From Enterobacteria phage GEC-3S: a stretch of 64,000 nt of DNA. The position numbers and the translations under genes were made by a program. Shown one piece after another: positions 3,133 through 48,666 of the stretch (its first letter is position 1; each line of letters opens with the position of its first letter). Location: the sequence record HE978309; one strand, given 5' to 3'. A model generated the notes under the pieces. It was not told the origin of the DNA. It saw only the letters and a list, made by a program, of their open reading frames with translations, and did not search any database.

Positions 3133-4635
3133 ATGCAAGATATTAAAATTCACTTTCTGAACTACTCCCATGTTCAAATTGAATGTAGCGATTCAATTTT
3201 ATTAGAAATGCGAGATTATTTTAGTTTTGAAGTCGAGGGAGCAAGATTTCAAAAAAGATTTAAGTATGGTGGATGGGATGGGCGTATTCGTCTTTTAGAT
3301 TACAACGGAAAGCTGCCAATCGGTCTAACTAAAACCGTGGGAATCTTCGCTAAAAATATGGGCTATAGCGTATGGGTAGATCCTCGCTTATTCGAAAAAG
3401 AACAAGTTACAGAAGAAGAAATTACAAAATGGTGTAATGACTTAGAATTATATTCCGGTGCTAACAGGATCACCCCTCATTGGTATCAATCAAAGGCCGT
3501 CTTTGAAGGTATTCATCATAAACGCCGTATGTTAGTTTTGCCTACGTCCGCTGGTAAATCTGCGATTGCTTGTATGTTGTCTCGTTGGTACTTAGAGAAT
3601 TACGAAGGGAAAGTGTTGATCATCGTTCCTACCACGTCGCTAGTGCTGCAAATGCGTGATGACTTTGTTGATTATCGCCAGTTTCCTTATGAAGCAATTC
3701 ATACTATCATGAGCGGTACTAGTAAACACGTAGGTGATCGCCTGATCGTTGTTAGTACGTGGCAATCTGCATGTAAACAACCTAGTGAGTGGTTCCAACA
3801 ATTCGGGATGGTTATTGTTGACGAATGTCACAAGGCTACTGCTAAAAACCTGCTAAACATCGTTACTGATATGGATCATTGCCAATTTAAGATCGGCATG
3901 ACTGGTTCCCCTCGTGACGGGAAAGCTAACATGATGCAGTATGTCGGGCTTTTTGGTGATATTTCTAAGATCGTGAGTATTGACCGCCTGATGGAAGAAG
4001 GTCAAGTGACAAAACTGAAAATTAACTGCCTTTTCCTTCGTTATACCGATGAGGAATGTAGCGCGGTTAAGGGGCGAGAATATGCGGAAGAGATCAAGTA
4101 TATTACATCTAACCCACGACGAAATAAGTTTGCTTGCAATTTGGCGCTAAAACTCGCTAAGAAGGGCGAAAACGTATTCCTGATGTTCCGCAATACTAAG
4201 CACGGAAAACTTATGTATGATGCGTTACAGAAGGTACACGACAAGGTTTATTATATTGACGGTGGAGTTAAGACAGAAGAACGTGATGAATTTAAGAAAA
4301 TGGCGGAGGGTGACACCGGGATCATTTGTGTTGCGTCTTATGGTGTGTTCTCTACTGGTGTTTCAATTAAGAATTTGCACCATGTTATTTTCGGTCATCC
4401 AGTGAAGGAATCAACTATCGTTCGTCAGAGTATCGGTCGTGCATTGCGTAAACATGGTTCGAAAGACATTGCAACGGTCTGGGATCTTATAGATCATCTG
4501 GCGGTGAAGACAAAGAGCAAGAATGCTAAGAAACAGTTTAGTCACCTTAATTATGCTCTTAAACATGCCCTTGAAAGAATAAAAATTTACAATACCGACC
4601 GATTCGAATATGTCACGAAAACCATCGAGATTTAA
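3133..4635 (+). CDS. uvsW: UvsW DNA/RNA helicase
   Basis: ORF track 3118..4635 starts at GTG; the ATG at 3133 gives MQDIKIHF..., matching T4 UvsW as I recall it; Walker A LPTSAGKS and helicase motifs. Confidence 0.93.
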   Translation: MQDIKIHFLNYSHVQIECSDSILLEMRDYFSFEVEGARFQKRFKYGGWDGRIRLLDYNGKLPIGLTKTVGIFAKNMGYSVWVDPRLFEKEQVTEEEITKWCNDLELYSGANRITPHWYQSKAVFEGIHHKRRMLVLPTSAGKSAIACMLSRWYLENYEGKVLIIVPTTSLVLQMRDDFVDYRQFPYEAIHTIMSGTSKHVGDRLIVVSTWQSACKQPSEWFQQFGMVIVDECHKATAKNLLNIVTDMDHCQFKIGMTGSPRDGKANMMQYVGLFGDISKIVSIDRLMEEGQVTKLKINCLFLRYTDEECSAVKGREYAEEIKYITSNPRRNKFACNLALKLAKKGENVFLMFRNTKHGKLMYDALQKVHDKVYYIDGGVKTEERDEFKKMAEGDTGIICVASYGVFSTGVSIKNLHHVIFGHPVKESTIVRQSIGRALRKHGSKDIATVWDLIDHLAVKTKSKNAKKQFSHLNYALKHALERIKIYNTDRFEYVTKTIEI

Positions 4636-4678
4636 TAAATAGGGGATTTAATGCCCCTTTATTCTACGGAGATTAAAA

Positions 4679-4915
4679 ATGATTAGCTTTAAACGTTTTT
4701 TGGTTGAGGCCGCTATTGACGGTTTCATGCGTAAGATTTATTCTTGTAATACTATCGAGGGATTAAATGAACTTGAGGCATATTATGAGAAGCGCAAGAA
4801 AGAAACAGAATTGAAACCTGCTGATGATATTTCGATCCGTGATGCCATCGCTGGACGCCGTAAGCAATTGGAAGCGGACAACGAGCCAGAAGAGGAGCCG
4901 GAAGAGGATTTTTAA
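4679..4915 (+). CDS. UvsW.1-like small protein
   Basis: 78-aa ORF directly downstream of uvsW, same size and position as T4 uvsW.1. Confidence 0.55.
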   Translation: MISFKRFLVEAAIDGFMRKIYSCNTIEGLNELEAYYEKRKKETELKPADDISIRDAIAGRRKQLEADNEPEEEPEEDF

Positions 4916-4916
4916 G

Positions 4917-4945
4917 ATATAAAAAAGCCCCATCAATGATGGGGC
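4917..4945 (-). terminator. rho-independent terminator (minus strand)
   Basis: hairpin GCCCCATC...GATGGGGC with a minus-strand U-run, between convergent genes. Confidence 0.45.
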
Positions 4946-4978
4946 AAAATAAACCAATTAAAATCGGTTATCAACAAA

Positions 4979-19230: not shown

Positions 19231-19261
19231 TTTTGATTCTCCAGTTCGTTTCGGTATGGGT

Positions 19262-19303
19262 GTATTATGCTATGTTCTTACTTTGGTGTCAACAACTTTT
19301 TTA
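19262..19303 (-). promoter_or_regulatory. early promoter cassette (PeSL-like)
   Basis: TTGACA, 17-18 nt, CATAAT, conserved leader ACACCCATACCGAAACGAAC. Confidence 0.55.
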
Positions 19304-19570
19304 GATATTTTCAGAAATAAATTTTAAAACTTGACGTAAATGTTTCTCATCTTTGATAGTCGCCGGAAGTTCTTCTTTTACTTCCTGTGCAAGATAGATA
19401 TTTCCGTTCCAAGTGAAAGATCCGTCTTCGTTTACGCGATAGCTGAACATCCACTCGCAATCATTTTCGATTTCATATACACATAGAAGAGTATAATCTT
19501 CAAAGCTATTGATTTCAAGGTCGAAGCCGTGACGTTTTGCAAAGTTGGTAGTGGTTTTAGTCAGTGCCAT
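19301..19570 (-). CDS. hypothetical early protein (89 aa)
   Basis: ORF track; GGAGAATCAAAC RBS. Confidence 0.5.
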   Translation of the reverse strand: MALTKTTTNFAKRHGFDLEINSFEDYTLLCVYEIENDCEWMFSYRVNEDGSFTWNGNIYLAQEVKEELPATIKDEKHLRQVLKFISENI

Positions 19571-19606
19571 TGTTTGATTCTCCTAAGTGGTATCTCGTTT
19601 CGATGG

Positions 19607-19648
19607 GTGTATTATGCTATAGGCGTGATCTGGTGTCAATTCTTTTTT
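19607..19648 (-). promoter_or_regulatory. early promoter cassette (PeSL-like)
   Basis: TTGACA then CATAAT-like -10, conserved leader variant. Confidence 0.5.
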
Positions 19649-19659
19649 TAAATTTTATG

Positions 19660-19687
19660 CAATAAAAAAGCCGACGCTATGGTCGGC
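19660..19687 (-). terminator. rho-independent terminator
   Basis: hairpin AGCCGACC-AUAGC-GUCGGCU then UUUUUUAUU. Confidence 0.5.
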
Positions 19688-19695
19688 TAATAAAA

Positions 19696-20004
19696 TCATT
19701 TAGACAAATAATCATTCAGTGCAATCCGGTCGGCGTATGCTGGTGTTACGTCAATCGCAATCACTTTAACGCGTGCTTTCTTGCGACCTGGGTTTTCACG
19801 TAACCAGTGCTCATGACCGTGAACATTTTTATACTGCGATGCTTCTTCGAAGGTACGGATCGGACCTGGGTAATCAGCGTAAAGGATCTCTAGATCTTCG
19901 GTGATGTAAAAATATACATCGTAATTGCTGTTCTCTAGCTTAAGCAGAGACTTTCGGAACATTGGGAGATTTTCGCGGGTAAATTCAAAGATATTATCTT
20001 TCAT
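19696..20004 (-). CDS. HxHW-family small protein, paralog 1
   Basis: 102 aa; YDVYFYITEDLEILY...HGHEHW...VIAIDV. Confidence 0.55.
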   Translation of the reverse strand: MKDNIFEFTRENLPMFRKSLLKLENSNYDVYFYITEDLEILYADYPGPIRTFEEASQYKNVHGHEHWLRENPGRKKARVKVIAIDVTPAYADRIALNDYLSK

Positions 20005-20026
20005 AGTATTATCCTCAATAGTTGGA

Positions 20027-20049
20027 TGAAAAGGGGCGTTAACGCCCCC
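20027..20049 (-). terminator. hairpin, weak terminator
   Basis: GGGGCG-TTAA-CGCCCC with a short U-run; near-copy of the 16005 hairpin. Confidence 0.3.
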
Positions 20050-20054
20050 ATATA

Positions 20055-20342
20055 TTAAAACAGTCCTTCCTGTACACCGTAGTAGAGTTCGTCGCTGATA
20101 ATTTCATTAATGCGACGGTGTGCATATTCCTGATTTGCGAAGTTGTCAGCAAGTTCTATTTTAGTTTCGCCGTCATGAGTCCATTTAGTGATAACTTTAC
20201 CATCTGCAAATTTGAAGTTGAACTCTTTAGCTACTGCATCGCGTACCAGACGTGCAAACTTATTGTTGCGGATTGCATTGTCGGTTTCGTGTGCAGCGTG
20301 AGCAAATTTGTTAACTTTCAGAGTGATAGTGATGTATGCCAT
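20055..20342 (-). CDS. hypothetical early protein (95 aa), related to 23382..23693
   Basis: ORF track; shared segment ...RNNKFARLVRDAVAKEFNFKF vs ...LIREVRKALAKEFNTKI. Confidence 0.5.
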   Translation of the reverse strand: MAYITITLKVNKFAHAAHETDNAIRNNKFARLVRDAVAKEFNFKFADGKVITKWTHDGETKIELADNFANQEYAHRRINEIISDELYYGVQEGLF

Positions 20343-20385
20343 AATTTGATTCTCCTAGTTAGAAAGTGTATCTCGTTTCGATGGG

Positions 20386-20427
20386 GATATTATGCTATAT
20401 CCCCGATCCGGTGTCAACACTTTTTAT
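20386..20427 (-). promoter_or_regulatory. early promoter cassette (PeSL-like)
   Basis: TTGACA; -10 CATAAT lies inside hairpin GGGGATAT...ATATCCCC. Confidence 0.5.
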
Positions 20428-20702
20428 AAAATAATTTTTTGATATTTTTCTATGATGTTCGTGTAAGTCACATCAACCGCTAGCACTGTTGCTTCGAATC
20501 CACCGTTTAGCCAATGGCTATGATCATGGTCGTGAAAGAAACCTAGACCAGTACGAAGACCTTCTTTATATTCTGCGCGTACATTCAGTTTGTCGTCGAT
20601 AAACAGATAAAACCATGAATTTTTACTAGGATTGATGATACAACCTTTCAGATTAGGGAGAATATCACGACTAAGAATAAACTTATCACCTACTTTGAAC
20701 AT
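20424..20702 (-). CDS. HxHW-family small protein, paralog 2
   Basis: ORF track 20424..20717; start ATG with GAGGA RBS; WFYLFIDDKLNV...HDHDHSHW...VLAVDV. Confidence 0.55.
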   Translation of the reverse strand: MFKVGDKFILSRDILPNLKGCIINPSKNSWFYLFIDDKLNVRAEYKEGLRTGLGFFHDHDHSHWLNGGFEATVLAVDVTYTNIIEKYQKIIL

Positions 20703-20706
20703 AATA

Positions 20707-21027
20707 TTAGTCCTCACTTATAAGGTCAAACCAATTGTTTTTCGCATAATGCTTAATGCGTGCTTGATCTGCTTCCGCTGGTGATAGATTCCATGCAACC
20801 ACTACAACTTCTGACGCATCGTCATCAGTTTCCGATACCCAATGATTGTGATTCATACAGTTATTTGCTATCGAGTGAGCAAATGATTTCATCACTGGAG
20901 ACGTATAATCATAGTAACGGATTTTCAGATTTTCATCAACATACAAATAGATCGTATAAGGTTTATATTCAGTAACAAGTAACAGACAGTTACGCAATTC
21001 TGGGAAAATCTTTTTAGTTAATTTCAT
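20707..21027 (-). CDS. HxHW-family small protein, paralog 3
   Basis: 106 aa; YTIYLYVDENLKIRY...NHNHW...VVVAWNL. Confidence 0.55.
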   Translation of the reverse strand: MKLTKKIFPELRNCLLLVTEYKPYTIYLYVDENLKIRYYDYTSPVMKSFAHSIANNCMNHNHWVSETDDDASEVVVVAWNLSPAEADQARIKHYAKNNWFDLISED

Positions 21028-21229
21028 ATTCTAGTTCTCCGTAATACACGGTAATCCATTTTTCTTCATATTTTGTATCTTTCCAGCACACAATACCGTT
21101 TACTGTGCAATCTTTGGAATTGACGAATGATTCATATTGTTCCGCATCTTCCATCATTTCATGAGCGGTCTTTTCATCGAATATATCGCAGATCGCTTTA
21201 TATGCTCGATAATCTTTAAATTTGCTCAT
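21014..21229 (-). CDS. small protein, tandem duplicate (copy 1)
   Basis: MSKFKDYRAYKAICDIFDEKTAHEMMEDAEQYESF..., paralog of the adjacent upstream gene. Confidence 0.5.
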   Translation of the reverse strand: MSKFKDYRAYKAICDIFDEKTAHEMMEDAEQYESFVNSKDCTVNGIVCWKDTKYEEKWITVYYGELEYEIN

Positions 21230-21231
21230 AA

Positions 21232-21441
21232 TTAACACCACTCAAGAGTTTTTGAAAACACATCTATCCATTGTTGAGTATATGCGGTTTCTTTCCATGA
21301 TACAATACCAGTCGAATAATGGTTTTTGTTTCCAGAAAAGGACGGGCATTTTGATGCATCTTCCATCATCTTTTCGGCGAACTCTGGTTCGTATACTCGC
21401 AAGATCTGTTGATATGCTTTATAATCTTTAAACTTACTCAT
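21232..21441 (-). CDS. small protein, tandem duplicate (copy 2)
   Basis: MSKFKDYKAYQQILRVYEPEFAEKMMEDASKCPSF... Confidence 0.5.
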   Translation of the reverse strand: MSKFKDYKAYQQILRVYEPEFAEKMMEDASKCPSFSGNKNHYSTGIVSWKETAYTQQWIDVFSKTLEWC

Positions 21442-21722
21442 AACAACACCACCGATACATCGTAATCATTCGCGACCTTATCGGCTTCTTCAACCGACAT
21501 AATACCTTCTGCGACAATTGGCATAGGGTGATCGTGATTCCACCAATGGTCATGTATATCAATTTCAGTTTTGCCGGAAAATGAATCATGTTTGACGTTT
21601 TTCACTTTATACCCGATGTGACCGTCGTGGTCAATAAAGATATAGTTTCCGAAAATCGGTGTCTGTAAAATCATACCGAAAAATTTTTCTTTGTTGTTCG
21701 GGTCGAGTGTAATCATTTTCAT
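21438..21722 (-). CDS. HxHW-family small protein, paralog 4
   Basis: 94 aa; NYIFIDHDGHIGY...HDHWWNHDH. Confidence 0.5.
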   Translation of the reverse strand: MKMITLDPNNKEKFFGMILQTPIFGNYIFIDHDGHIGYKVKNVKHDSFSGKTEIDIHDHWWNHDHPMPIVAEGIMSVEEADKVANDYDVSVVLL

Positions 21723-21734
21723 AATATATTCCTC

Positions 21735-21914
21735 TTAGAAAGGGATGGTCATTTCTTGAGCTTGTACATTCTCGTTAGGATTAAACTTCATCCAACCGAT
21801 ATTGTCTACCAGCATATGCACATTTTTATCATATCCTACGTGAGTAGTCAACACTAAATGTGCTTTACATTCAACGATGATTTCCATGTACTTCTGAACT
21901 TCGATAGCTTTCAT
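21735..21914 (-). CDS. hypothetical small protein (59 aa)
   Basis: sub-60-aa ORF MKAIEVQKYMEIIVECKAHL...; GGAGAATCAAA RBS; promoter cassette upstream. Confidence 0.4.
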   Translation of the reverse strand: MKAIEVQKYMEIIVECKAHLVLTTHVGYDKNVHMLVDNIGWMKFNPNENVQAQEMTIPF

Positions 21915-21943
21915 TTTGATTCTCCGTTTGTTGTCTTGATGGG

Positions 21944-21985
21944 AGTATCTTACTACTCCCTTTAATCATTGTCAACGATTATTTG
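21944..21985 (-). promoter_or_regulatory. early promoter cassette (PeSL-like)
   Basis: TTGACA, spacer containing GGGAGTAGTAAGATACTCCC hairpin, weak -10. Confidence 0.45.
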
Positions 21986-22146
21986 TTAATTTCTGGTGCG
22001 TTGCTCGGATAGTAACCTTCTTTAACACCCAGATATTTTGCAACCATTCCGGTGATCTTCTGTGCTACTACGATATCGAATTTCAGGTAGTCTTCACCGT
22101 GGTTTGCTACAATGTATGCTTCGCATTCTGCTTTAGTCTGGAACAT
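21979..22146 (-). CDS. small protein, copy B of a duplicated gene (55 aa)
   Basis: ORF track 21979..22212; start at MFQTKAECEAY... with GGAGAATCAAAA RBS; duplicate of 18703..18870. Confidence 0.5.
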   Translation of the reverse strand: MFQTKAECEAYIVANHGEDYLKFDIVVAQKITGMVAKYLGVKEGYYPSNAPEINK

Positions 22147-22177
22147 TTTTGATTCTCCTATATCTCGTTGGTATGTG

Positions 22178-22219
22178 TGTAGTATAGGGGATCGGTGATC
22201 CCCTGTCAACAACTTTTTT
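22178..22219 (-). promoter_or_regulatory. early promoter cassette (PeSL-like)
   Basis: TTGACA, spacer GGGGATCACCGATCCCC, TATACT. Confidence 0.55.
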
Positions 22220-22526
22220 ATTCTTCATCTTCATTTTTATCTTTATATGCGTACTTCATAAATTTGTCTGCTACTTTGTCCGCGTTTTCAGGTTCTACGT
22301 CTGACGCTAGGACAACAGCTAGTTCGGTTTTGTCGTTTCCGTCATACCAATGATTATGAGTGTCGTTTTCTTCGATATAAAACGAATCATTTGGAGTTGT
22401 TCGACAATATACGTCTAAATTCCCATCGATATAAAAGATCCAATCCGAATACAAAATGATTGCTTTAGCCAGATTTTTATTGTCTCTTACAAAAGGTTCC
22501 GCGACAAATAGCTTAGTTTGTTCCAT
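22218..22526 (-). CDS. HxHW-family small protein, paralog 5
   Basis: ORF track 22218..22583; start at MEQTKLF... with GAGGAAAA RBS; WIFYIDGNLDVY...HNHW...AVVLASDV. Confidence 0.55.
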   Translation of the reverse strand: MEQTKLFVAEPFVRDNKNLAKAIILYSDWIFYIDGNLDVYCRTTPNDSFYIEENDTHNHWYDGNDKTELAVVLASDVEPENADKVADKFMKYAYKDKNEDEE

Positions 22527-22542
22527 AATATTTTCCTCAAAA

Positions 22543-22734
22543 TTATACAGCTTCGTAAACTTCCCAATGTTCAGCGCCAACACGCTTAACGAAAAGGTTT
22601 TCTTTGATGTTATTCATAAACGTCTGGATAGATTTAATGCGGTTGGAAGGTTTCCAGTCTTCGTTGGCATTGCGGCGATACATAATAACATTACCAGTTC
22701 GCTTATATTCAGCAACCATTTTAAGATCACACAT
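22543..22734 (-). CDS. hypothetical early protein (63 aa)
   Basis: ORF track; GAGGATAAT RBS. Confidence 0.45.
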   Translation of the reverse strand: MCDLKMVAEYKRTGNVIMYRRNANEDWKPSNRIKSIQTFMNNIKENLFVKRVGAEHWEVYEAV

Positions 22735-22779
22735 AATATTATCCTCAATTTGTGGGAGAGTATTACCCCTCCCAATGAT

Positions 22780-22821
22780 TGTTATGTTATATCACACAAA
22801 ATGGCGTGTCAATGCTTCTTT
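22780..22821 (-). promoter_or_regulatory. early promoter (sigma70-like)
   Basis: TTGACA, 17 nt, TAACAT; overlaps the 3' end of the upstream ORF. Confidence 0.4.
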
Positions 22822-23112
22822 TGCGGTTCCGCTAAGACTTTCGATCTCGCCTGGCATAACATCAACCGCCAGAACTTCGACAACATCCTCGGACCCTAAC
22901 CAGTGAGTATGGCCTTTGTAGAACTTGATAACCAGACTACCTTCCTCATCCCATTTAACGCTATCGCTAGCCCACCACACATCACCGTCGATAAAGTTGA
23001 TGTAAAGCACACTACGCCACATTGAATTAATTACTTTCAATACTGCGCCTTTCATCTCTTCCACGGTATGGTCTTCCATTTTGAAGACCTCACCTACCTG
23101 AACTTTTGCCAT
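22792..23112 (-). CDS. HxHW-family small protein, paralog 6
   Basis: 106 aa; VLYINFIDGDVWW...HTHW...VLAVDV. Confidence 0.55.
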   Translation of the reverse strand: MAKVQVGEVFKMEDHTVEEMKGAVLKVINSMWRSVLYINFIDGDVWWASDSVKWDEEGSLVIKFYKGHTHWLGSEDVVEVLAVDVMPGEIESLSGTAKEALTRHFV

Positions 23113-23129
23113 TTAGTCACCTCTCTTTA

Positions 23130-23309
23130 TTACATAACAATCACGCCAGCCGTTGAAAGTTGATGTTTCAACTGAGCATTTTCTGCTACCGTCAAATCAA
23201 TGATTTCTTGTGACGCTGCAATCATATATCCATTGGTGATATTGTTTTGCATCAGTTCAATGGTTTCTTCGTTGTAGCGGATTTTAGCGATGATTTCGTT
23301 GAAGTTCAT
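23130..23309 (-). CDS. hypothetical small protein (59 aa)
   Basis: sub-60-aa ORF MNFNEIIAKIRYNEETIELMQ...; GGAGAATCAATC RBS. Confidence 0.4.
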   Translation of the reverse strand: MNFNEIIAKIRYNEETIELMQNNITNGYMIAASQEIIDLTVAENAQLKHQLSTAGVIVM

Positions 23310-23341
23310 GATTGATTCTCCTAGTTCGTTTCGGTATGTGT

Positions 23342-23383
23342 GTATTATAGGGGATCTCCCGATCCCCTGTCAACAACTTTTTT
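23342..23383 (-). promoter_or_regulatory. early promoter cassette (PeSL-like)
   Basis: TTGACA, spacer GGGGATCGGGAGATCCCC, TATAAT, conserved leader. Confidence 0.6.
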
Positions 23384-23693
23384 AAAGTTTTTCCATGATA
23401 ACGGTCATAATTACATCTTCTGCGCGAGCGGTCAGATTATCAGCGTCAGCATGTGGGCGGTTGGTTGTTACAGAGATAGCACCGTTGCGCACTGGTTTGA
23501 TATTGATATCAAGATGATCCGCGAAACGTTCGCCAGTTACAGAATGAATTTTGGTGTTAAATTCTTTTGCCAGTGCCTTGCGAACTTCACGAATCAGGGT
23601 AGCGTTTTTCAGTTGGTTCTCCGCGCTCATGGTCTTCTGGGTGTTCATGGTTCCGTCGAAGTCAATCATTGGCAGCGTTACGATGTATTTCAT
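23382..23693 (-). CDS. hypothetical early protein (103 aa), related to 20055..20342
   Basis: ORF track; GGAGAATCAAAA RBS. Confidence 0.5.
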   Translation of the reverse strand: MKYIVTLPMIDFDGTMNTQKTMSAENQLKNATLIREVRKALAKEFNTKIHSVTGERFADHLDINIKPVRNGAISVTTNRPHADADNLTARAEDVIMTVIMEKL

Positions 23694-23736
23694 TTTTGAT
23701 TCTCCGTTTAAGAAAGTGTGTTTCGTTTTGATGTGT

Positions 23737-23778
23737 GTATTATAAGGGGATCACCGATCCCCTGTCAACAACTTTTTG
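23737..23778 (-). promoter_or_regulatory. early promoter cassette (PeSL-like)
   Basis: TTGACA, spacer GGGGATCGGTGATCCCC, TATAAT. Confidence 0.6.
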
Positions 23779-23780
23779 AA

Positions 23781-24257
23781 TTATTTTTCTTGATGCTCGC
23801 GCTCGTACTTTTCGAAATAAAATTCTACTGGCTGATCGTGGATTGAAAGCAAGCCAAAGCGTTTAGCCGCTCGCAATCCCATATTGCGCTGAATGTACTT
23901 CTGGAAGTTCTCGCGTATACACTTACGCCAGTATTCTAAGCCCATACAGCTTTTATAAAGATTGCATTGCACACACGCCGGATTCATGTTATCAAGTATA
24001 TCATGTTCCGGTTTATGCATTCCTACAACCTTATACTTCCACGATCCATCATCATTACGGGCAATTCGTCCATTTTCATCATAGACTACCTTTGAGCGTC
24101 GCAATACTGGTTTGATATGGTCTGCGTGCCAGCGATCCCCTAGTTCCTCGCCACAATAGGCACAACGCCCACCGTATTTCATTTTCAGGATCTGGCGTTG
24201 CTCTTTCTTTGACAATTTTTTAGGTTTAGGGGCTTTCGCCCCTTCATTATCACACAT
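23781..24257 (-). CDS. HNH endonuclease (free-standing, homing-endonuclease-like)
   Basis: 158 aa; CAYCG...HADHIKP...N...ACVQCN HNH motif; start overlaps ligase stop. Confidence 0.65.
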   Translation of the reverse strand: MCDNEGAKAPKPKKLSKKEQRQILKMKYGGRCAYCGEELGDRWHADHIKPVLRRSKVVYDENGRIARNDDGSWKYKVVGMHKPEHDILDNMNPACVQCNLYKSCMGLEYWRKCIRENFQKYIQRNMGLRAAKRFGLLSIHDQPVEFYFEKYEREHQEK

Positions 24258-25752
24258 CGAATACCTCTTTTACTGTATTTGCCGTGGTCTTGTCGTAGCG
24301 AATACGTTTGATGATCGGGAGAAATAAAGAGAACTCCGGTTCATCTTCTTTACGTGATTTGCTGCGAATGTACCCGTTGCATGTCATCTCAATGACTTTT
24401 CCGACCAGGTTATGCCGTTCAGCCCATAACATTTCTCGGTCAAGTTCATTTCGACGATCGAACGGAATTACACGTTCAGTACCATCATCACCTTTTTCGG
24501 TTGTAGTGTCGGTTAATCCCGATCCGGTGTTAGTCATCATTCGTCCGCACGCACTACGGACAGTAAAACCGCCTACCTTATTGGGGTCTTTACTATGCGG
24601 ATATACATCAACAATTTCCGCGTCGAAGTCAATAACTTCTTTAAATTTAACCTGATCTTTACTGCGACGATCTTCAAATACACCATGTAAATTTTTAAGG
24701 ATAATACCTTCTAAGCCCATGTTTACATAGCGATGATATACTTCGCGAGCTTCATCGATATTGTTAACTACGGTATTTTCGATTATCTGAACACGAGGAT
24801 CGTTAAGTTCTTCAACAATCTGTTTTAGTTCTTCGAATCGATCTTTATATTGCTTCGTTGCTTTCTCGTTTCCGTAATACACATCACGGTCGATAACATC
24901 CCAGACAGTGTAAACAATACATTGGGCTTCTTCTTTTGGAATAGTTCCTTTCAGTGATTTGTTGAGGATACCATTTCCGGTCTGACGATCTGCAACAACG
25001 GATTCTTTCACCGCTTCCGCTACTGGCGTTAATGGCATTTCCTCTTCTTCAAATATCCATGACAGAGTACCATCATAAACGCTCTCAACGAAGTTCTGCG
25101 CTGGTGTTTGCGAAAGGGTAGGCATATATACCAATTCGCCATCTAGAACAATTCCACGGCCTCGTAGACGCTCTAAAACCGCAAACAAATCATCAAGCCC
25201 TTGATAGGTATTACCTGAGCGGGTATAGATTGCTAATGTTTCCCCGTCAATATCAGCCATACCACGAGCGCCATCGCTTTTAAGTTGTGCATACGCCGGA
25301 TACTTGATATTAGAAATAGTCTTATCAGAACATGACGATGCAAGGTGGCACGGTTGCTGAGGGATCAGTTTCTTCCATACCTTGTTTGCAGTGGTAGCGG
25401 AACAACCGCATTCCAGGTCACGATTCAGGACCATCATTGCAACTTTAGCATCATCCTCTGACAAGCAAGTCAGAGTATCGGTAACTAGCTGTAATGCTGC
25501 GTTGCCAGTTACTTGACGCGTGGCAAGTTTATTTTTAAAGACCTGTAATGCACCGGATAAAGACAATACAGACGAATAGCGAGATGGTTTATCGTATTTC
25601 TTTACGCCAAACGTAACCTGTTTGCAATATGCCAGATAAAAGCATTCTTTCAGCGTTTCATTGCTCGCGGATTCTTTCAGAATCTTTTCTTTCAGCGATG
25701 TTTTGTCTGTTGCTGCAAGCTGATTAATGATATTAAGAATTGACATTTTCAC
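24250..25752 (-). CDS. 30: ATP-dependent DNA ligase
   Basis: 500 aa; KSDGARG adenylation motif and flanking similarity to T4 gp30. Confidence 0.9.
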   Translation of the reverse strand: MKMSILNIINQLAATDKTSLKEKILKESASNETLKECFYLAYCKQVTFGVKKYDKPSRYSSVLSLSGALQVFKNKLATRQVTGNAALQLVTDTLTCLSEDDAKVAMMVLNRDLECGCSATTANKVWKKLIPQQPCHLASSCSDKTISNIKYPAYAQLKSDGARGMADIDGETLAIYTRSGNTYQGLDDLFAVLERLRGRGIVLDGELVYMPTLSQTPAQNFVESVYDGTLSWIFEEEEMPLTPVAEAVKESVVADRQTGNGILNKSLKGTIPKEEAQCIVYTVWDVIDRDVYYGNEKATKQYKDRFEELKQIVEELNDPRVQIIENTVVNNIDEAREVYHRYVNMGLEGIILKNLHGVFEDRRSKDQVKFKEVIDFDAEIVDVYPHSKDPNKVGGFTVRSACGRMMTNTGSGLTDTTTEKGDDGTERVIPFDRRNELDREMLWAERHNLVGKVIEMTCNGYIRSKSRKEDEPEFSLFLPIIKRIRYDKTTANTVKEVFDV

Positions 25753-26408: not shown

Positions 26409-26437
26409 CCAAAATATAGGCGGGATTATTTCCCGCC
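26409..26437 (-). terminator. rho-independent terminator after gene 31
   Basis: hairpin GGCGGGAAAUAAUCCCGCC then UAUAUUUUG. Confidence 0.45.
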
Positions 26438-31129: not shown

Positions 31130-31157
31130 TCACAACAAAGGCGGGATTTCTCCCGCC
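31130..31157 (-). terminator. rho-independent terminator
   Basis: hairpin GGCGGGA-GAAA-UCCCGCC (GNRA loop) then UUUGUUGU. Confidence 0.45.
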
Positions 31158-34659: not shown

Positions 34660-34701
34660 TGAATTATAGCGGGGATTTCTCCCCGCGTCAACACTTATTT
34701 T
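34660..34701 (-). promoter_or_regulatory. promoter with palindromic spacer, just downstream of nrdA
   Basis: TTGACG, spacer CGGGGAGAAATCCCCGC, TATAAT. Confidence 0.5.
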
Positions 34702-36943: not shown

Positions 36944-37011
36944 ATTACCTCACTTCATATTTTAGCAGGAACAAGTTTATCCTCCATATTGGGGGCTTTC
37001 GCCCCCTTTGT

Positions 37012-48633: not shown

Positions 48634-48666
48634 TTAAAGGGGGCGAAAGCCCCCTATGGGGTTATT

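What the first reader, a model, noticed from the sequence alone, without database searches (positions are those of the whole stretch)
23781..24257. Free-standing HNH endonuclease overlapping the 3' end of the DNA ligase gene
A 158-aa HNH protein starts 8 nt before the ligase stop. Its first codons contain a GNRA hairpin (AGGGGCGAAAGCCCCT) about 4 nt after the ligase stop. The gene may be a mobile homing-endonuclease insertion using ligase as its target neighbourhood.
Basis: partly seen in the sequence, partly recalled or inferred. Interest (0 to 1): 0.3.

Follow-up and report, generated by a model that had tools for sequence, protein, structure and literature searches.

The report
Resident HNH nuclease gene behind ligase
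A small HNH nuclease gene sits directly after the DNA ligase gene of this RB49-like (Krischvirus) coliphage, but it is already annotated, is present in every relative found, and has co-diverged with the ligase, so it is not a currently jumping homing element.

Summary
On the minus strand, a 158-aa HNH ORF (24257..23781) overlaps the stop of DNA ligase gene 30 by 8 nt (ATGTGTGA). A GGGGC-GAAA-GCCCC hairpin lies 6 nt after the ligase stop.

The window is a Krischvirus (98% identical to phage Phi1). The ORF corresponds to RB49p212, already annotated as an HNH endonuclease.

The 'mobile homing insertion' reading is supported only as an ancient event.
- No other T4-like genus examined has this gene behind its ligase.
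- The nearest outside homologues are 40-51% identical and lie in siphoviruses and prophages.
- All 57 Krischvirus records carry the gene at the same junction.
- So do four deeper metagenomic lineages, whose ligases are 51-72% identical.
- The HNH is as conserved as the ligase or more (58-87% identity). dN/dS is 0.04, synonymous sites are saturated, and there is no co-conversion gradient.

The hairpin belongs to a window-wide class of GC-rich stem-loops placed just after stop codons (6 found, 0.29 expected). One sister lineage keeps it through two compensatory pair changes; three other lineages lack it. It most likely attenuates expression running from the ligase into the nuclease.

Verdict: an ordinary, already annotated gene with a modest new evolutionary detail.

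The parts
23781..24257 (-). HNH nuclease CDS (158 aa; corresponds to RB49p212 / NP_891783.1, 98.7% amino-acid identity)
   Evidence: ORF. Pfam PF01844 at 27 bits. PHROG 2118 at 7.9e-55. 97.5-100% amino-acid identity in 57 Krischvirus records. RB49 annotation.
23952..24164 (-). Zn-finger HNH (beta-beta-alpha-Me) catalytic core, residues C32-K102: C32xxC35, D46-H47, N90, C95xxC98-N99, with a roughly 30-aa beta-hairpin insert
   Evidence: C32, C35, D46, H47, C95, C98, N99 and K102 are invariant in a 69-sequence family alignment, and N90 is conserved in at least 90%. They are also invariant in the 5 ligase-linked lineages. AlphaFold2 model with pLDDT 93.7. Best PDB matches are Cas9 HNH domains and Gme HNH 4h9d, and these are weak.
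23790..23939 (-). Conserved C-terminal helical region (residues 107-156: WRKxIRENFQKYIQRNMGLRAAKRFGLL..PVEFYFEKYERE)
   Evidence: This is the most conserved block between lineages: 92% identity window vs L015 and 69-76% vs L017 and L018. Helices 107-124, 126-133 and 147-156 in the model. Its role in DNA binding or dimerisation is inferred only.
24250..25752 (-). DNA ligase gene 30 (498-500 aa)
   Evidence: Pfam PF01068 at 2.8e-22. RB49 gene 30 annotation.
24250..24257 (-). 8-nt overlap ATGTGTGA (HNH start / ligase stop)
   Evidence: Read directly from the sequence. The junction differs in the sister lineages: TAATG in L005 and L015, a 16-nt gap in L017 and a 23-nt overlap in L018.
24264..24269 (-). 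Shine-Dalgarno AAGAGG for the HNH gene, 6 nt before its ATG, inside the last ligase codons
   Evidence: Read directly from the sequence. Its function is inferred.
24228..24243 (-). GNRA hairpin AGGGGC-GAAA-GCCCCT inside HNH codons 5-10, 6 nt after the ligase stop
   Evidence: -11.6 kcal/mol. Member of an over-represented class of post-stop GC-rich hairpins. Kept in L015 as GGGGAC-GAAA-GTCCCC through two compensatory pair changes. Absent in L005, L017 and L018. The identical 16-mer is the stem-loop of a PeSL in L018.
23739..23768 (-). PeSL (TTGACA, 18-nt spacer holding the GGGGATC..GATCCCC stem-loop, TATAAT) directly after the HNH stop. It marks the end of the ligase-HNH unit and the start of the variable cassette array.
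   Evidence: 12 of 12 promoter match. Repeat family D4. Breakpoints of similarity among Krischvirus genomes fall at 23722 and 23797. PeSLs are described in PMC2839356.
23788..23797 (-). Indel/recombination breakpoint inside the last HNH codons. RB49-type genomes carry an extra ~357-bp cassette (RB49p211) here and a different HNH C-terminal tail.
   Evidence: blastn of window vs RB49. RB49 annotation. Records with 2-piece matches.

Best explanation
This is a small zinc-finger HNH (beta-beta-alpha-Me) nuclease gene. The ancestor of the Krischvirus-like clade acquired it once, from the family of roughly 120-190-aa HNH genes scattered in siphoviruses and prophages. Since then it has been a fixed, vertically inherited resident at the 3' end of DNA ligase gene 30, kept by purifying selection. 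It is not a currently homing element.

It has no promoter of its own. It is expressed as the last cistron of the ligase transcription unit, from its own Shine-Dalgarno sequence embedded in the final ligase codons.

The GGGGC-GAAA-GCCCC hairpin belongs to a class of stem-loops that this phage places about 5 nt after stop codons. In this lineage the HNH reading frame has extended upstream over it. The hairpin most likely attenuates transcription and/or translation running from the ligase into the nuclease, and may protect the 3' end of ligase mRNA, keeping nuclease expression low.

Shown here: anatomy, distribution, co-divergence, selection, and over-representation and compensatory conservation of the hairpin. 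Inferred: nuclease activity, its substrate, and the attenuator role.
For: Identity and annotation
- The window is 98.3% identical to phage Phi1.
- The ORF corresponds to RB49p212, annotated 'HNH endonuclease'.
- It passes Pfam HNH and PHROG 2118.
- The catalytic and Zn residues are conserved: most are invariant and N90 is nearly so.
- The structure model is confident, pLDDT 93.7.

Fixation
- 57 of 57 Krischvirus records carry it at the same junction.
- Four deeper lineages carry it directly behind the ligase in the same 31 / 30.3 / 30 synteny. Their ligases are 72, 71, 60 and 51% identical to the window's.

Co-divergence and selection
- HNH identity is 87, 70, 58 and 60% in those same lineages.
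- Synonymous sites are saturated in both genes, pS 0.75-0.95.
- dN of the HNH is about equal to dN of the ligase.
- Window vs RB49 gives dN/dS of 0.040 for the HNH and 0.035 for the ligase.
- Between the window and L015, the HNH is more conserved than ligase, cd, 30.3 and gp31.

Single old acquisition
- It is absent behind the ligase in all other T4-like lineages examined.
- There is a clear identity gap between the clade (58% or more) and everything else (51% or less) in a 5.8-billion-protein search.

Expression
- No sigma-70 or late promoter lies between the ligase and the HNH.
- An SD is in place.
- A PeSL terminator/promoter follows the HNH stop.

Hairpin
- 6 GC-rich hairpins against 0.29 expected. 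All the others are intergenic: four follow a stop codon by 5-6 nt and the fifth lies within a PeSL.
- Two compensatory pair changes in L015: one made of two synonymous changes, the other of two nonsynonymous changes (A to T and A to V).
- The same 16-mer is a PeSL stem-loop in L018.
- PolyG/polyC stem-loops of RB49/phi1 terminated transcription in a lacZ assay (PMC2839356).
Against: - No biochemical or genetic data exist for this protein or any close homologue, so activity and substrate are inferred from motifs.
- The hairpin lacks a U-tract and is not called by the terminator scan.
- It is missing in three of the five lineages, so it is not essential to the gene.
- Its covariation rests on only two distinct sequences.
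- One metagenomic Krischvirus has an amber codon at W110. Either the gene can be lost without immediate death or this is a sequencing error.
- Fixation in sampled genomes does not prove that unsampled HNH-less relatives are absent.
- The four deep lineages are known from only 7 contigs.
Confidence: 0.6

Rival explanations
1. It is an active free-standing homing endonuclease. The HNH would cut the ligase region of related phages that lack it, and double-strand-break repair would copy it in. Its uniform presence would then simply reflect a completed sweep, maintained by continuing competition with unsampled HNH-less relatives.
For: - It is a free-standing HNH next to a conserved DNA-metabolism gene, as for T4 mob and seg genes.
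- It is lineage-specific among Straboviridae, with its nearest homologues in unrelated phages.
- The family sits in many different modules in siphoviruses.
- Petrov et al. 2010 count one 'other HNH' as a putative homing endonuclease gene in RB49 and in phi-1, presumably this ORF.
- RB16 carries a different putative homing endonuclease gene abutting the 5' end of its ligase gene.
- Window-L015 HNH identity (87%) exceeds ligase identity (72%).
Against: - There is no presence/absence polymorphism in 57 genomes or in four deeper lineages.
- Synonymous sites are as saturated as in the ligase, so there has been no recent transfer.
- There is no co-conversion gradient. The last 100 ligase residues are the least conserved part (52-60% identity) next to an 82-92% identical HNH.
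- The junction has been remodelled independently in each lineage.
- It shares no family with Mob, Seg or I-Tev proteins, and at 158 aa it has no recognisable long-target DNA-binding module.
Confidence: 0.2
2. It is a functional partner of the ligase: a nicking or structure-specific nuclease whose product is sealed or processed by gp30 in replication, recombination or repair. That would explain the conserved adjacency and co-expression.
For: - Adjacency and co-orientation with the ligase are kept across lineages down to 51% ligase identity, despite remodelled junctions.
- Conservation is equal to or above that of the ligase.
- Homologues in eiAU, Sasha and HK225 lie in replication or recombination modules.
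- There are weak similarities to endonuclease VII and NinG families.
Against: - Gene order is generally conserved in T4-like core regions, so adjacency alone is weak evidence.
- All other T4-like phages manage without this gene.
- Krischvirus already has its own gp49 endonuclease VII.
- Endonuclease_7 and NinG Pfam scores are far below threshold.
Confidence: 0.12
3. The hairpin is incidental: a chance palindrome, or a leftover of a PeSL, with no function. The N-terminal extension would then be neutral coding sequence.
For: - It is absent from L005, L017 and L018.
- It has no U-tract and no promoter boxes around it.
- Perfect 6-bp/4-nt hairpins in general occur at chance frequency.
- Within Krischvirus its conservation is uninformative, because the genomes are 96-100% identical.
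Against: - The GC-rich class is about 20-fold over-represented. The other five members are all intergenic; four follow a stop codon by 5-6 nt.
- Two compensatory base-pair changes, one pair of them nonsynonymous, keep a -12.9 kcal/mol hairpin in L015, although synonymous sites elsewhere are saturated.
Confidence: 0.08

Closest known systems
Free-standing HNH homing endonuclease genes of T4-like phages (MobA-E; mobE of T4 and Aeh1)
   Same: An HNH nuclease ORF lodged between or next to conserved DNA-metabolism genes, without its own early promoter. An RNA hairpin lies near its translation start. For comparison, Gibb and Edgell 2009 describe a hairpin that sequesters the mobE ribosome binding site; that paper is cited in PMC2993671.
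   Different: Mob and seg genes are patchily distributed even among close relatives (PMC2993671), whereas this gene is in every genome of the clade. It shares no sequence family with Mob proteins (PHROG 2118). It is smaller. Here the hairpin lies downstream of the start codon and leaves the SD free.
PHROG 2118 small Zn-finger HNH genes of siphoviruses and prophages (e.g. HK225_056, Sasha gp76, eiAU-183 gp20, Bas78_0001)
   Same: Same protein family: 38-51% identity over residues ~19-155, the same CxxC..DH..N..CxxCN core, and the same C-terminal helices.
   Different: Those genes sit in varied modules (nin region, between polymerase and helicase, near Dam/ParB, near terminase) and are sporadic. 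This one is locked behind the ligase of a T4-like clade and, in Krischvirus, L005 and L015, has an added 6-18-aa N-terminal extension. None of the family has been characterised experimentally, as far as I could find.
Terminase-associated HNH nickases (HK97 gp74; Geobacter Gme HNH, PDB 4h9d)
   Same: A similar small single-domain Zn-HNH. 4h9d is the best PDB sequence match (E = 1.8e-4) and a top fold match (probability 0.96).
   Different: There is no terminase adjacency here. T4-type phages package by headful with gp16/gp17. The matches are weak (Foldseek E above 0.03). This protein has an extra beta-hairpin insert and a C-terminal helical region.
T4 endonuclease VII (gp49)
   Same: Same length class (157 aa), the same order of CxxC / DH / CxxCN motifs, and a helical C-terminus. 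Some structural neighbours are named 'recombination endonuclease VII'.
   Different: Pfam Endonuclease_7 scores only 13 bits against a 23.6 cut-off. Krischvirus encodes its own gp49 orthologue elsewhere, 44% identical to T4 gp49.
PeSL stem-loops / polyG-polyC terminators of RB49 and phi1 (Arbiol et al. 2010, PMC2839356; Comeau et al. 2014, PMC4122927)
   Same: A G(n)-loop-C(n) hairpin of the type described for RB49/phi1. The identical 16-mer is the stem-loop of a PeSL in lineage L018. Such stem-loops reduced downstream lacZ expression like a strong terminator.
   Different: No -35 or -10 boxes flank it, and it lies inside a coding sequence rather than in an intergenic cassette boundary.

Membership tests
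HNH / beta-beta-alpha-Me nuclease superfamily (Pfam PF01844) | Profile match above the curated threshold | tested here: met
   27 bits against a 21.4 cut-off, E = 5e-06. All 5 ligase-linked lineage proteins match.
HNH / beta-beta-alpha-Me nuclease superfamily (Pfam PF01844) | Catalytic His (DH), Asn, and terminal Asn/His, plus two CxxC zinc ligand pairs | tested here: met
   D46, H47, N99, C32, C35, C95 and C98 are invariant in 69 sequences, and N90 is conserved in at least 90%. All are invariant in the 5 lineages.
HNH / beta-beta-alpha-Me nuclease superfamily (Pfam PF01844) | Beta-beta-alpha-metal fold | tested here: inconclusive
   The model is confident (pLDDT 93.7) and its top PDB neighbours are HNH domains (Cas9, Gme HNH; probability 0.96-0.99). 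However, Foldseek E values are above 0.03 and TM-scores are at most 0.45.
HNH / beta-beta-alpha-Me nuclease superfamily (Pfam PF01844) | Metal-dependent DNA cleavage | not testable with these tools
   Requires purified protein.
Free-standing homing endonuclease gene (HEG) | Presence/absence polymorphism among closely related genomes | tested here: not met
   57 of 57 Krischvirus records carry it, as do 4 of 4 deeper lineages.
Free-standing homing endonuclease gene (HEG) | Foreign origin relative to the host genome lineage | tested here: met
   Absent behind the ligase in the other T4-like lineages examined. Nearest homologues are siphovirus and prophage genes at 51% identity or less. The acquisition is old.
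Free-standing homing endonuclease gene (HEG) | Recent lateral spread: HEG less diverged than its flanks, with a co-conversion gradient | tested here: not met
   Synonymous sites are saturated as in the ligase. The ligase 3' end is 52-60% identical next to an 82-92% identical HNH, with no gradient.
Free-standing homing endonuclease gene (HEG) | Site-specific cleavage of the HEG-less allele, and unidirectional gene conversion in crosses | not testable with these tools
   No HEG-less allele is known in the clade. This needs a deletion mutant and crosses.
Terminase-associated HNH (HK97 gp74 type) | Gene adjacent to terminase/portal genes of a cos-type packaging module | tested here: not met
   Its neighbours are the ligase and small early ORFs. 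Of four siphovirus homologues checked, only Bas78 lies near a terminase.
T4 endonuclease VII (PF02945) | Profile match above threshold, and being the sole gp49-type gene of the genome | tested here: not met
   13.3 bits against a 23.6 cut-off. Krischvirus genomes have a separate gp49 orthologue.
PeSL (promoter-early stem-loop) | Sigma-70 -35 and -10 boxes flanking or overlapping the stem-loop, in an intergenic position | tested here: not met
   There are no promoter boxes at 24228-24243 and the hairpin is inside the CDS. For comparison, the element at 23739-23768 does meet the definition with a 12 of 12 match.
Intrinsic (Rho-independent) terminator | GC-rich hairpin followed by a U-tract | tested here: not met
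   The hairpin is followed by AAACCUAAAAAA and is not called by the scan. Published RB49 stem-loops nevertheless attenuate transcription.

The most novel reading that the evidence does not exclude
The hairpin would be a regulatory RNA element whose structure takes precedence over the protein it encodes. The evidence is that it is maintained through nonsynonymous compensatory changes. It would gate expression of a domesticated, formerly selfish HNH nuclease. That nuclease would have become a selected function linked to the ligase in a whole clade of T4-like phages, for example nicking paired with sealing, or exclusion of co-infecting relatives.
Probability: 0.15. Interest if true: 0.45.

Novelty: already known. 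Interest (0 to 1): 0.2.

Why it matters
The significance is small. The gene is already annotated as an HNH endonuclease in RB49 and its relatives. A 2010 review of T4-related genomes counts an 'other HNH' putative homing endonuclease in RB49 and phi-1, presumably this ORF.

What this analysis adds is that the gene does not behave like a mobile element. It has been fixed behind the ligase for as long as the ligase itself has diverged to about 50% identity, and it is at least as constrained. That makes it a reasonable example of a homing-type nuclease retained under selection after fixation.

It also makes a convenient test case for the GC-rich post-stop stem-loops of RB49-type phages, because this one sits inside a coding sequence and still shows compensatory change.

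Tried and rejected
- **Replacement of endonuclease VII: rejected.** T4 gp49 finds a full-length orthologue elsewhere in Krischvirus genomes at 44% identity. The Endonuclease_7 profile is below threshold.
- **Terminase-associated HNH: rejected on context**.
- **Own late or early promoter for the HNH: none found**.
- **Co-conversion gradient, or an HNH younger than its flanks: not seen**.
- **Defence-system HNH:** only weak PtuB and Cas9 domain-level matches (TIGR02646 at 16 bits against 52).
- **Metagenome and IMG/VR scans with the 5-lineage HNH alignment:** these returned only Krischvirus copies above 50% identity. L107 is a frameshifted, low-quality Krischvirus contig.
- **L007/P0004:** here the HNH switches to unrelated sequence after residue 75. 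It looks like a chimeric scaffold or a rearrangement, and I did not pursue it.
- **PDB sequence and fold searches:** no informative characterised relative.
- **Window-L015 HNH identity above ligase identity:** I considered this as a possible sign of lateral exchange. gp31 is similarly conserved (80%) and synonymous sites are saturated, so stronger constraint is the simpler explanation.

Full report
**1. Observation**

All genes in this part of the window are on the minus strand.

- The 158-aa ORF runs 24257..23781.
- The ligase ORF ends with TGA at 24252..24250, so the two overlap by the 8 nt ATGTGTGA (24250-24257).
- A GAGG Shine-Dalgarno core (24267..24264) lies 6 nt upstream of the HNH ATG, within the last ligase codons.
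- The hairpin AGGGGC-GAAA-GCCCCT occupies 24243..24228. It lies at +15 from the ATG and encodes E5-P10.
- The hairpin folds at -11.6 kcal/mol.
- The ORF passes Pfam HNH (27 bits against 21.4) and PHROG 2118 'HNH endonuclease' (7.9e-55).
- The upstream ORF is an ATP-dependent DNA ligase (PF01068), preceded by gp30.3 (PF08010).

**2. Where the window comes from**

- Megablast gives 58 phage records at 95-99% identity, led by Escherichia phage Phi1 at 98.3%, along with RB49, JSE and others of the genus Krischvirus.
- In RB49 the ORF is RB49p212 / NP_891783.1, annotated 'HNH endonuclease', next to gene 30.
- Petrov et al. 2010 list one 'other HNH' putative homing endonuclease for both RB49 and phi-1, presumably this ORF (PMC2993671).
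- The gene is therefore already annotated.

**3. Test of mobility: close relatives**

- tblastn finds the protein at 97.5-100% identity in 57 records, always under or next to the ligase annotation.
- An 801-nt probe and an 81-nt probe across the junction each match all 57 records.
- Variation starts only downstream of the gene. Similarity breaks at window 23722 or 23797.
- RB49-type genomes carry an extra ~357-bp cassette (RB49p211) inserted at 23788/23797, and this also changes the last HNH residues.
- That downstream region is a series of PeSL-flanked cassettes. Perfect TTGACA-18-TATAAT elements with G4..C4 stem-loops lie at 23768..23739 and 23373..23344, and there are related repeats further down.
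- Arbiol et al. 2010 and Comeau et al. 2014 describe such cassettes for RB49/phi1.

**4. Test of mobility: distant relatives**

The Krischvirus ligase is isolated among sequenced phages. The next best is Erwinia phage Cronus at 47%. The following have no homologue of this HNH behind their ligase:

- Cronus, RB16 and a Klebsiella phage.
- Four Aeromonas-type T4-like genomes of about 220-233 kb.
- Two metagenomic lineages with 48-49% ligase identity.

RB16 has a different putative homing endonuclease abutting the 5' end of its ligase gene.

A search of the large protein collection with the ligase gave three intermediate lineages at 72%, 60% and 51% identity. The HNH search gave a fourth, P0003 at 70%. 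The contigs are:

- L015/L016 for the 72% lineage.
- L017 for the 60% lineage.
- L018/L019 for the 51% lineage, from a 169-kb contig.
- L005/L006 for the P0003 lineage.

All of them encode a 149-166-aa homologue immediately after the ligase on the same strand, in the same gp31 / small ORF / 30.3 / 30 synteny. All five proteins pass Pfam HNH.

The junction differs in each lineage:

| Lineage | Ligase-HNH junction |
|---|---|
| Window | 8-nt overlap |
| L005, L015 | TAATG |
| L017 | 16-nt gap with its own GAGG |
| L018 | 23-nt overlap |

**5. Divergence and selection**

| Compared with window | HNH identity | Ligase identity |
|---|---|---|
| L015 | 87% | 72% |
| L005 | 70% | 71% |
| L017 | 58% | 60% |
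| L018 | 60% | 51% |

(Figures.)

- Nei-Gojobori estimates show synonymous sites saturated in both genes between lineages, pS 0.75-0.95.
- Nonsynonymous distances are similar in the two genes.
- Between the window and RB49, dN/dS is 0.040 for the HNH and 0.035 for the ligase.
- A 50-residue sliding comparison shows no rise in ligase similarity towards the HNH. The last 100 ligase residues are 52-60% identical between the window and L015, while the HNH is 82-92% identical.
- In that pair the HNH is more conserved than gp31 (80%), ligase (72%), cd (60%) and 30.3 (60%).

Together these results show long co-divergence under purifying selection and no sign of recent transfer.

One metagenomic Krischvirus has TGG changed to TAG at W110 in an otherwise intact frame. 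I note this as a single possible loss or an error.

**6. Origin of the gene**

- A profile search with the five proteins shows a gap between the ligase-linked clade (58% or more) and all other homologues (51% or less).
- The other homologues are proteins of roughly 120-190 aa from siphoviruses, prophages and enterobacterial or other proteobacterial genomes.
- In annotated phages they sit in different modules:
  - between Dam methylase and ParB in Sasha;
  - between DNA polymerase and helicase in eiAU-183;
  - in the nin region of HK225;
  - near the terminase in Bas78.
- I infer a single old capture by the ancestor of the clade.

**7. The protein**

- A 69-sequence alignment shows these residues invariant or nearly so: C32, C35, W43, H44, D46, H47, N90, P93, C95, C98, N99 and K102, and R111, R133, F146 and E149 in the C-terminal part.
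- The AlphaFold2 model is confident, pLDDT 93.7.
- It has the HNH core, a beta-hairpin insert (residues ~53-80) and three C-terminal helices.
- Fold and sequence searches of the PDB give only weak matches, to Cas9 HNH domains and to the Geobacter Gme HNH nickase 4h9d.
- Viral predicted structures give family members, some of them named endonuclease VII.
- The protein is not a gp49 substitute, because Krischvirus has its own gp49.
- It matches defence-system HNH proteins only at domain level.
- Nuclease activity and substrate remain inferred.

**8. The hairpin**

*Frequency.* Perfect 6-bp/4-nt hairpins occur at chance frequency in the window. GC-rich ones do not: 6 observed against 0.29 expected. 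On the minus strand, four with GNRA loops are seen against 0.06 expected.

*The other members.* All five others are intergenic; four of them follow a stop codon by 5-6 nt:

- GGGGGCGAAAGCCCCC at 37006..36991.
- The same 16-mer on the plus strand at 48639-48654.
- GCGGGAGAAATCCCGC at 31156..31141, followed by a T-rich tail.
- CGGGGAGAAATCCCCG inside a PeSL at 34685..34670.
- GGGGCGTTAACGCCCC followed by TTTT at 20033-20048.

The finding's hairpin, 6 nt after the ligase stop, fits this class.

*Conservation in L015.* The same codons read GGGGAC-GAAA-GTCCCC (-12.9 kcal/mol). Relative to the window:

- The outer pair changes from A-T to G-C through two synonymous changes.
- The fifth pair changes from G-C to A-T through two nonsynonymous changes, Ala to Thr and Ala to Val.

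The structure is kept while the peptide changes.

*Absence elsewhere.* L005 lacks these eight codons. L017 and L018 lack the whole N-terminal extension.

*Link to PeSLs.* L018 uses the identical 16-mer AGGGGCGAAAGCCCCT as the stem-loop of a PeSL two genes downstream.

*Published function.* Arbiol et al. showed that RB49/phi1 polyG/polyC stem-loops reduce downstream reporter expression about as much as a strong terminator.

*Interpretation.* I infer that the hairpin is the stem-loop belonging to the ligase 3' end. The HNH frame in Krischvirus and L015 has extended over it. It probably attenuates expression into the nuclease and/or protects the ligase mRNA 3' end.

*Caveats.*
- It has no U-tract, and no promoter boxes flank it.
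- The covariation rests on two lineages only.

**9. Expression context**

- No strong sigma-70-like promoter (the best match has 9 of 12 positions) and no late promoter TATAAATA lies between the terminator-like site after gene 31 (26437..26419) and the HNH.
- The gene must therefore be transcribed with the ligase.
- The unit ends at the PeSL right after the HNH stop.
- In L005 a canonical terminator and a TTGACA promoter occupy that place.

**10. Verdict**

The sequence features are real. The gene is an already annotated HNH endonuclease. The homing-insertion interpretation holds only as an ancient acquisition.

The most likely description is a fixed, selected nuclease gene, possibly of homing-endonuclease origin, co-expressed with the ligase and throttled by a post-stop stem-loop.

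Interest is low. The modest new points are the deep ligase-HNH linkage and the compensatory conservation of a stem-loop inside coding sequence.

Noticed in passing
window 19243-23768 (minus strand): An array of small early-gene cassettes, each preceded by a PeSL (TTGACA, G4..C4 stem-loop, TATAAT). Perfect copies lie at 23768..23739 and 23373..23344, and related repeats at about 22160-22222, 20368-20430, 19590-19652 and 19243-19305. This is the hyperplastic region described for RB49/phi1. Indels between Krischvirus genomes have breakpoints at these elements.
   Followed up: partly
window 19696-20004, 20424-20717, 20707-21027, 21438-21722, 22218-22583, 22792-23112 (all minus): Six paralogous ORFs of about 95-120 aa in the cassette array. 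They are 21-32% identical to the first of them and share an invariant H-x-H-W motif and a conserved V..DV..P.EAD tail. The one tested matches only a PHROG of unknown function. It is an expanded ORFan family of unknown role.
   Followed up: partly
window 20033-20048, 31141-31156, 34670-34685, 36991-37006, 48639-48654: GC-rich perfect hairpins with 4-nt loops, mostly GAAA on the coding strand. [quoted passage not shown] Counting the one in the finding, there are 6 against 0.29 expected by chance. Two are the identical 16-mer GGGGGCGAAAGCCCCC, on opposite strands.
   Followed up: partly
window 23788-23797; L001 (RB49) 4617-4973: RB49-type genomes carry an extra ~357-bp cassette (RB49p211, reported as a homologue of a Vibrio superintegron ORF) inserted exactly at the end of the HNH gene. 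It changes the HNH C-terminal tail from ...EREHQEK to ...ERENKE.
   Followed up: partly
L186 3001-3477 (Logan ERR14656784): A metagenomic Krischvirus contig in which the HNH gene has an amber codon at W110 (TGG to TAG), with the rest of the frame intact. It is either a natural knock-out or a sequencing error.
   Followed up: partly
L007 6001-6504 (ENA ERZ16268176 scaffold_8678): A Krischvirus scaffold in which the HNH ORF is identical for 75 residues and then continues into unrelated sequence. It is probably a chimeric assembly, possibly a rearrangement.
   Followed up: no
L002 (RB16) 1969-2520: Phage RB16 has a different 'putative homing endonuclease RB16 4' overlapping the 5' end of its ligase gene. 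So ligase flanks have been colonised independently by nuclease genes in another T4-like genus.
   Followed up: no
L018 (169-kb contig ERZ27275846), L015 (ERZ27235406), L017 (ERZ27260015), L005/L006 (SRR8048111/SRR8048117): Four metagenomic lineages of T4-like phages share Krischvirus-type synteny (31 / 30.3 / 30 / HNH / small ORFs). Their ligases are only 51-72% identical to the Krischvirus ligase. They are apparently unsampled sister groups of Krischvirus, with no counterpart among the phage GenBank records searched.
   Followed up: partly
window 25746-25752: The mechanical ORF call starts the ligase at GTG 25752 (500 aa). The RB49 annotation uses the ATG 6 nt downstream (498 aa). Either way the start overlaps the end of gene 30.3.
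   Followed up: no
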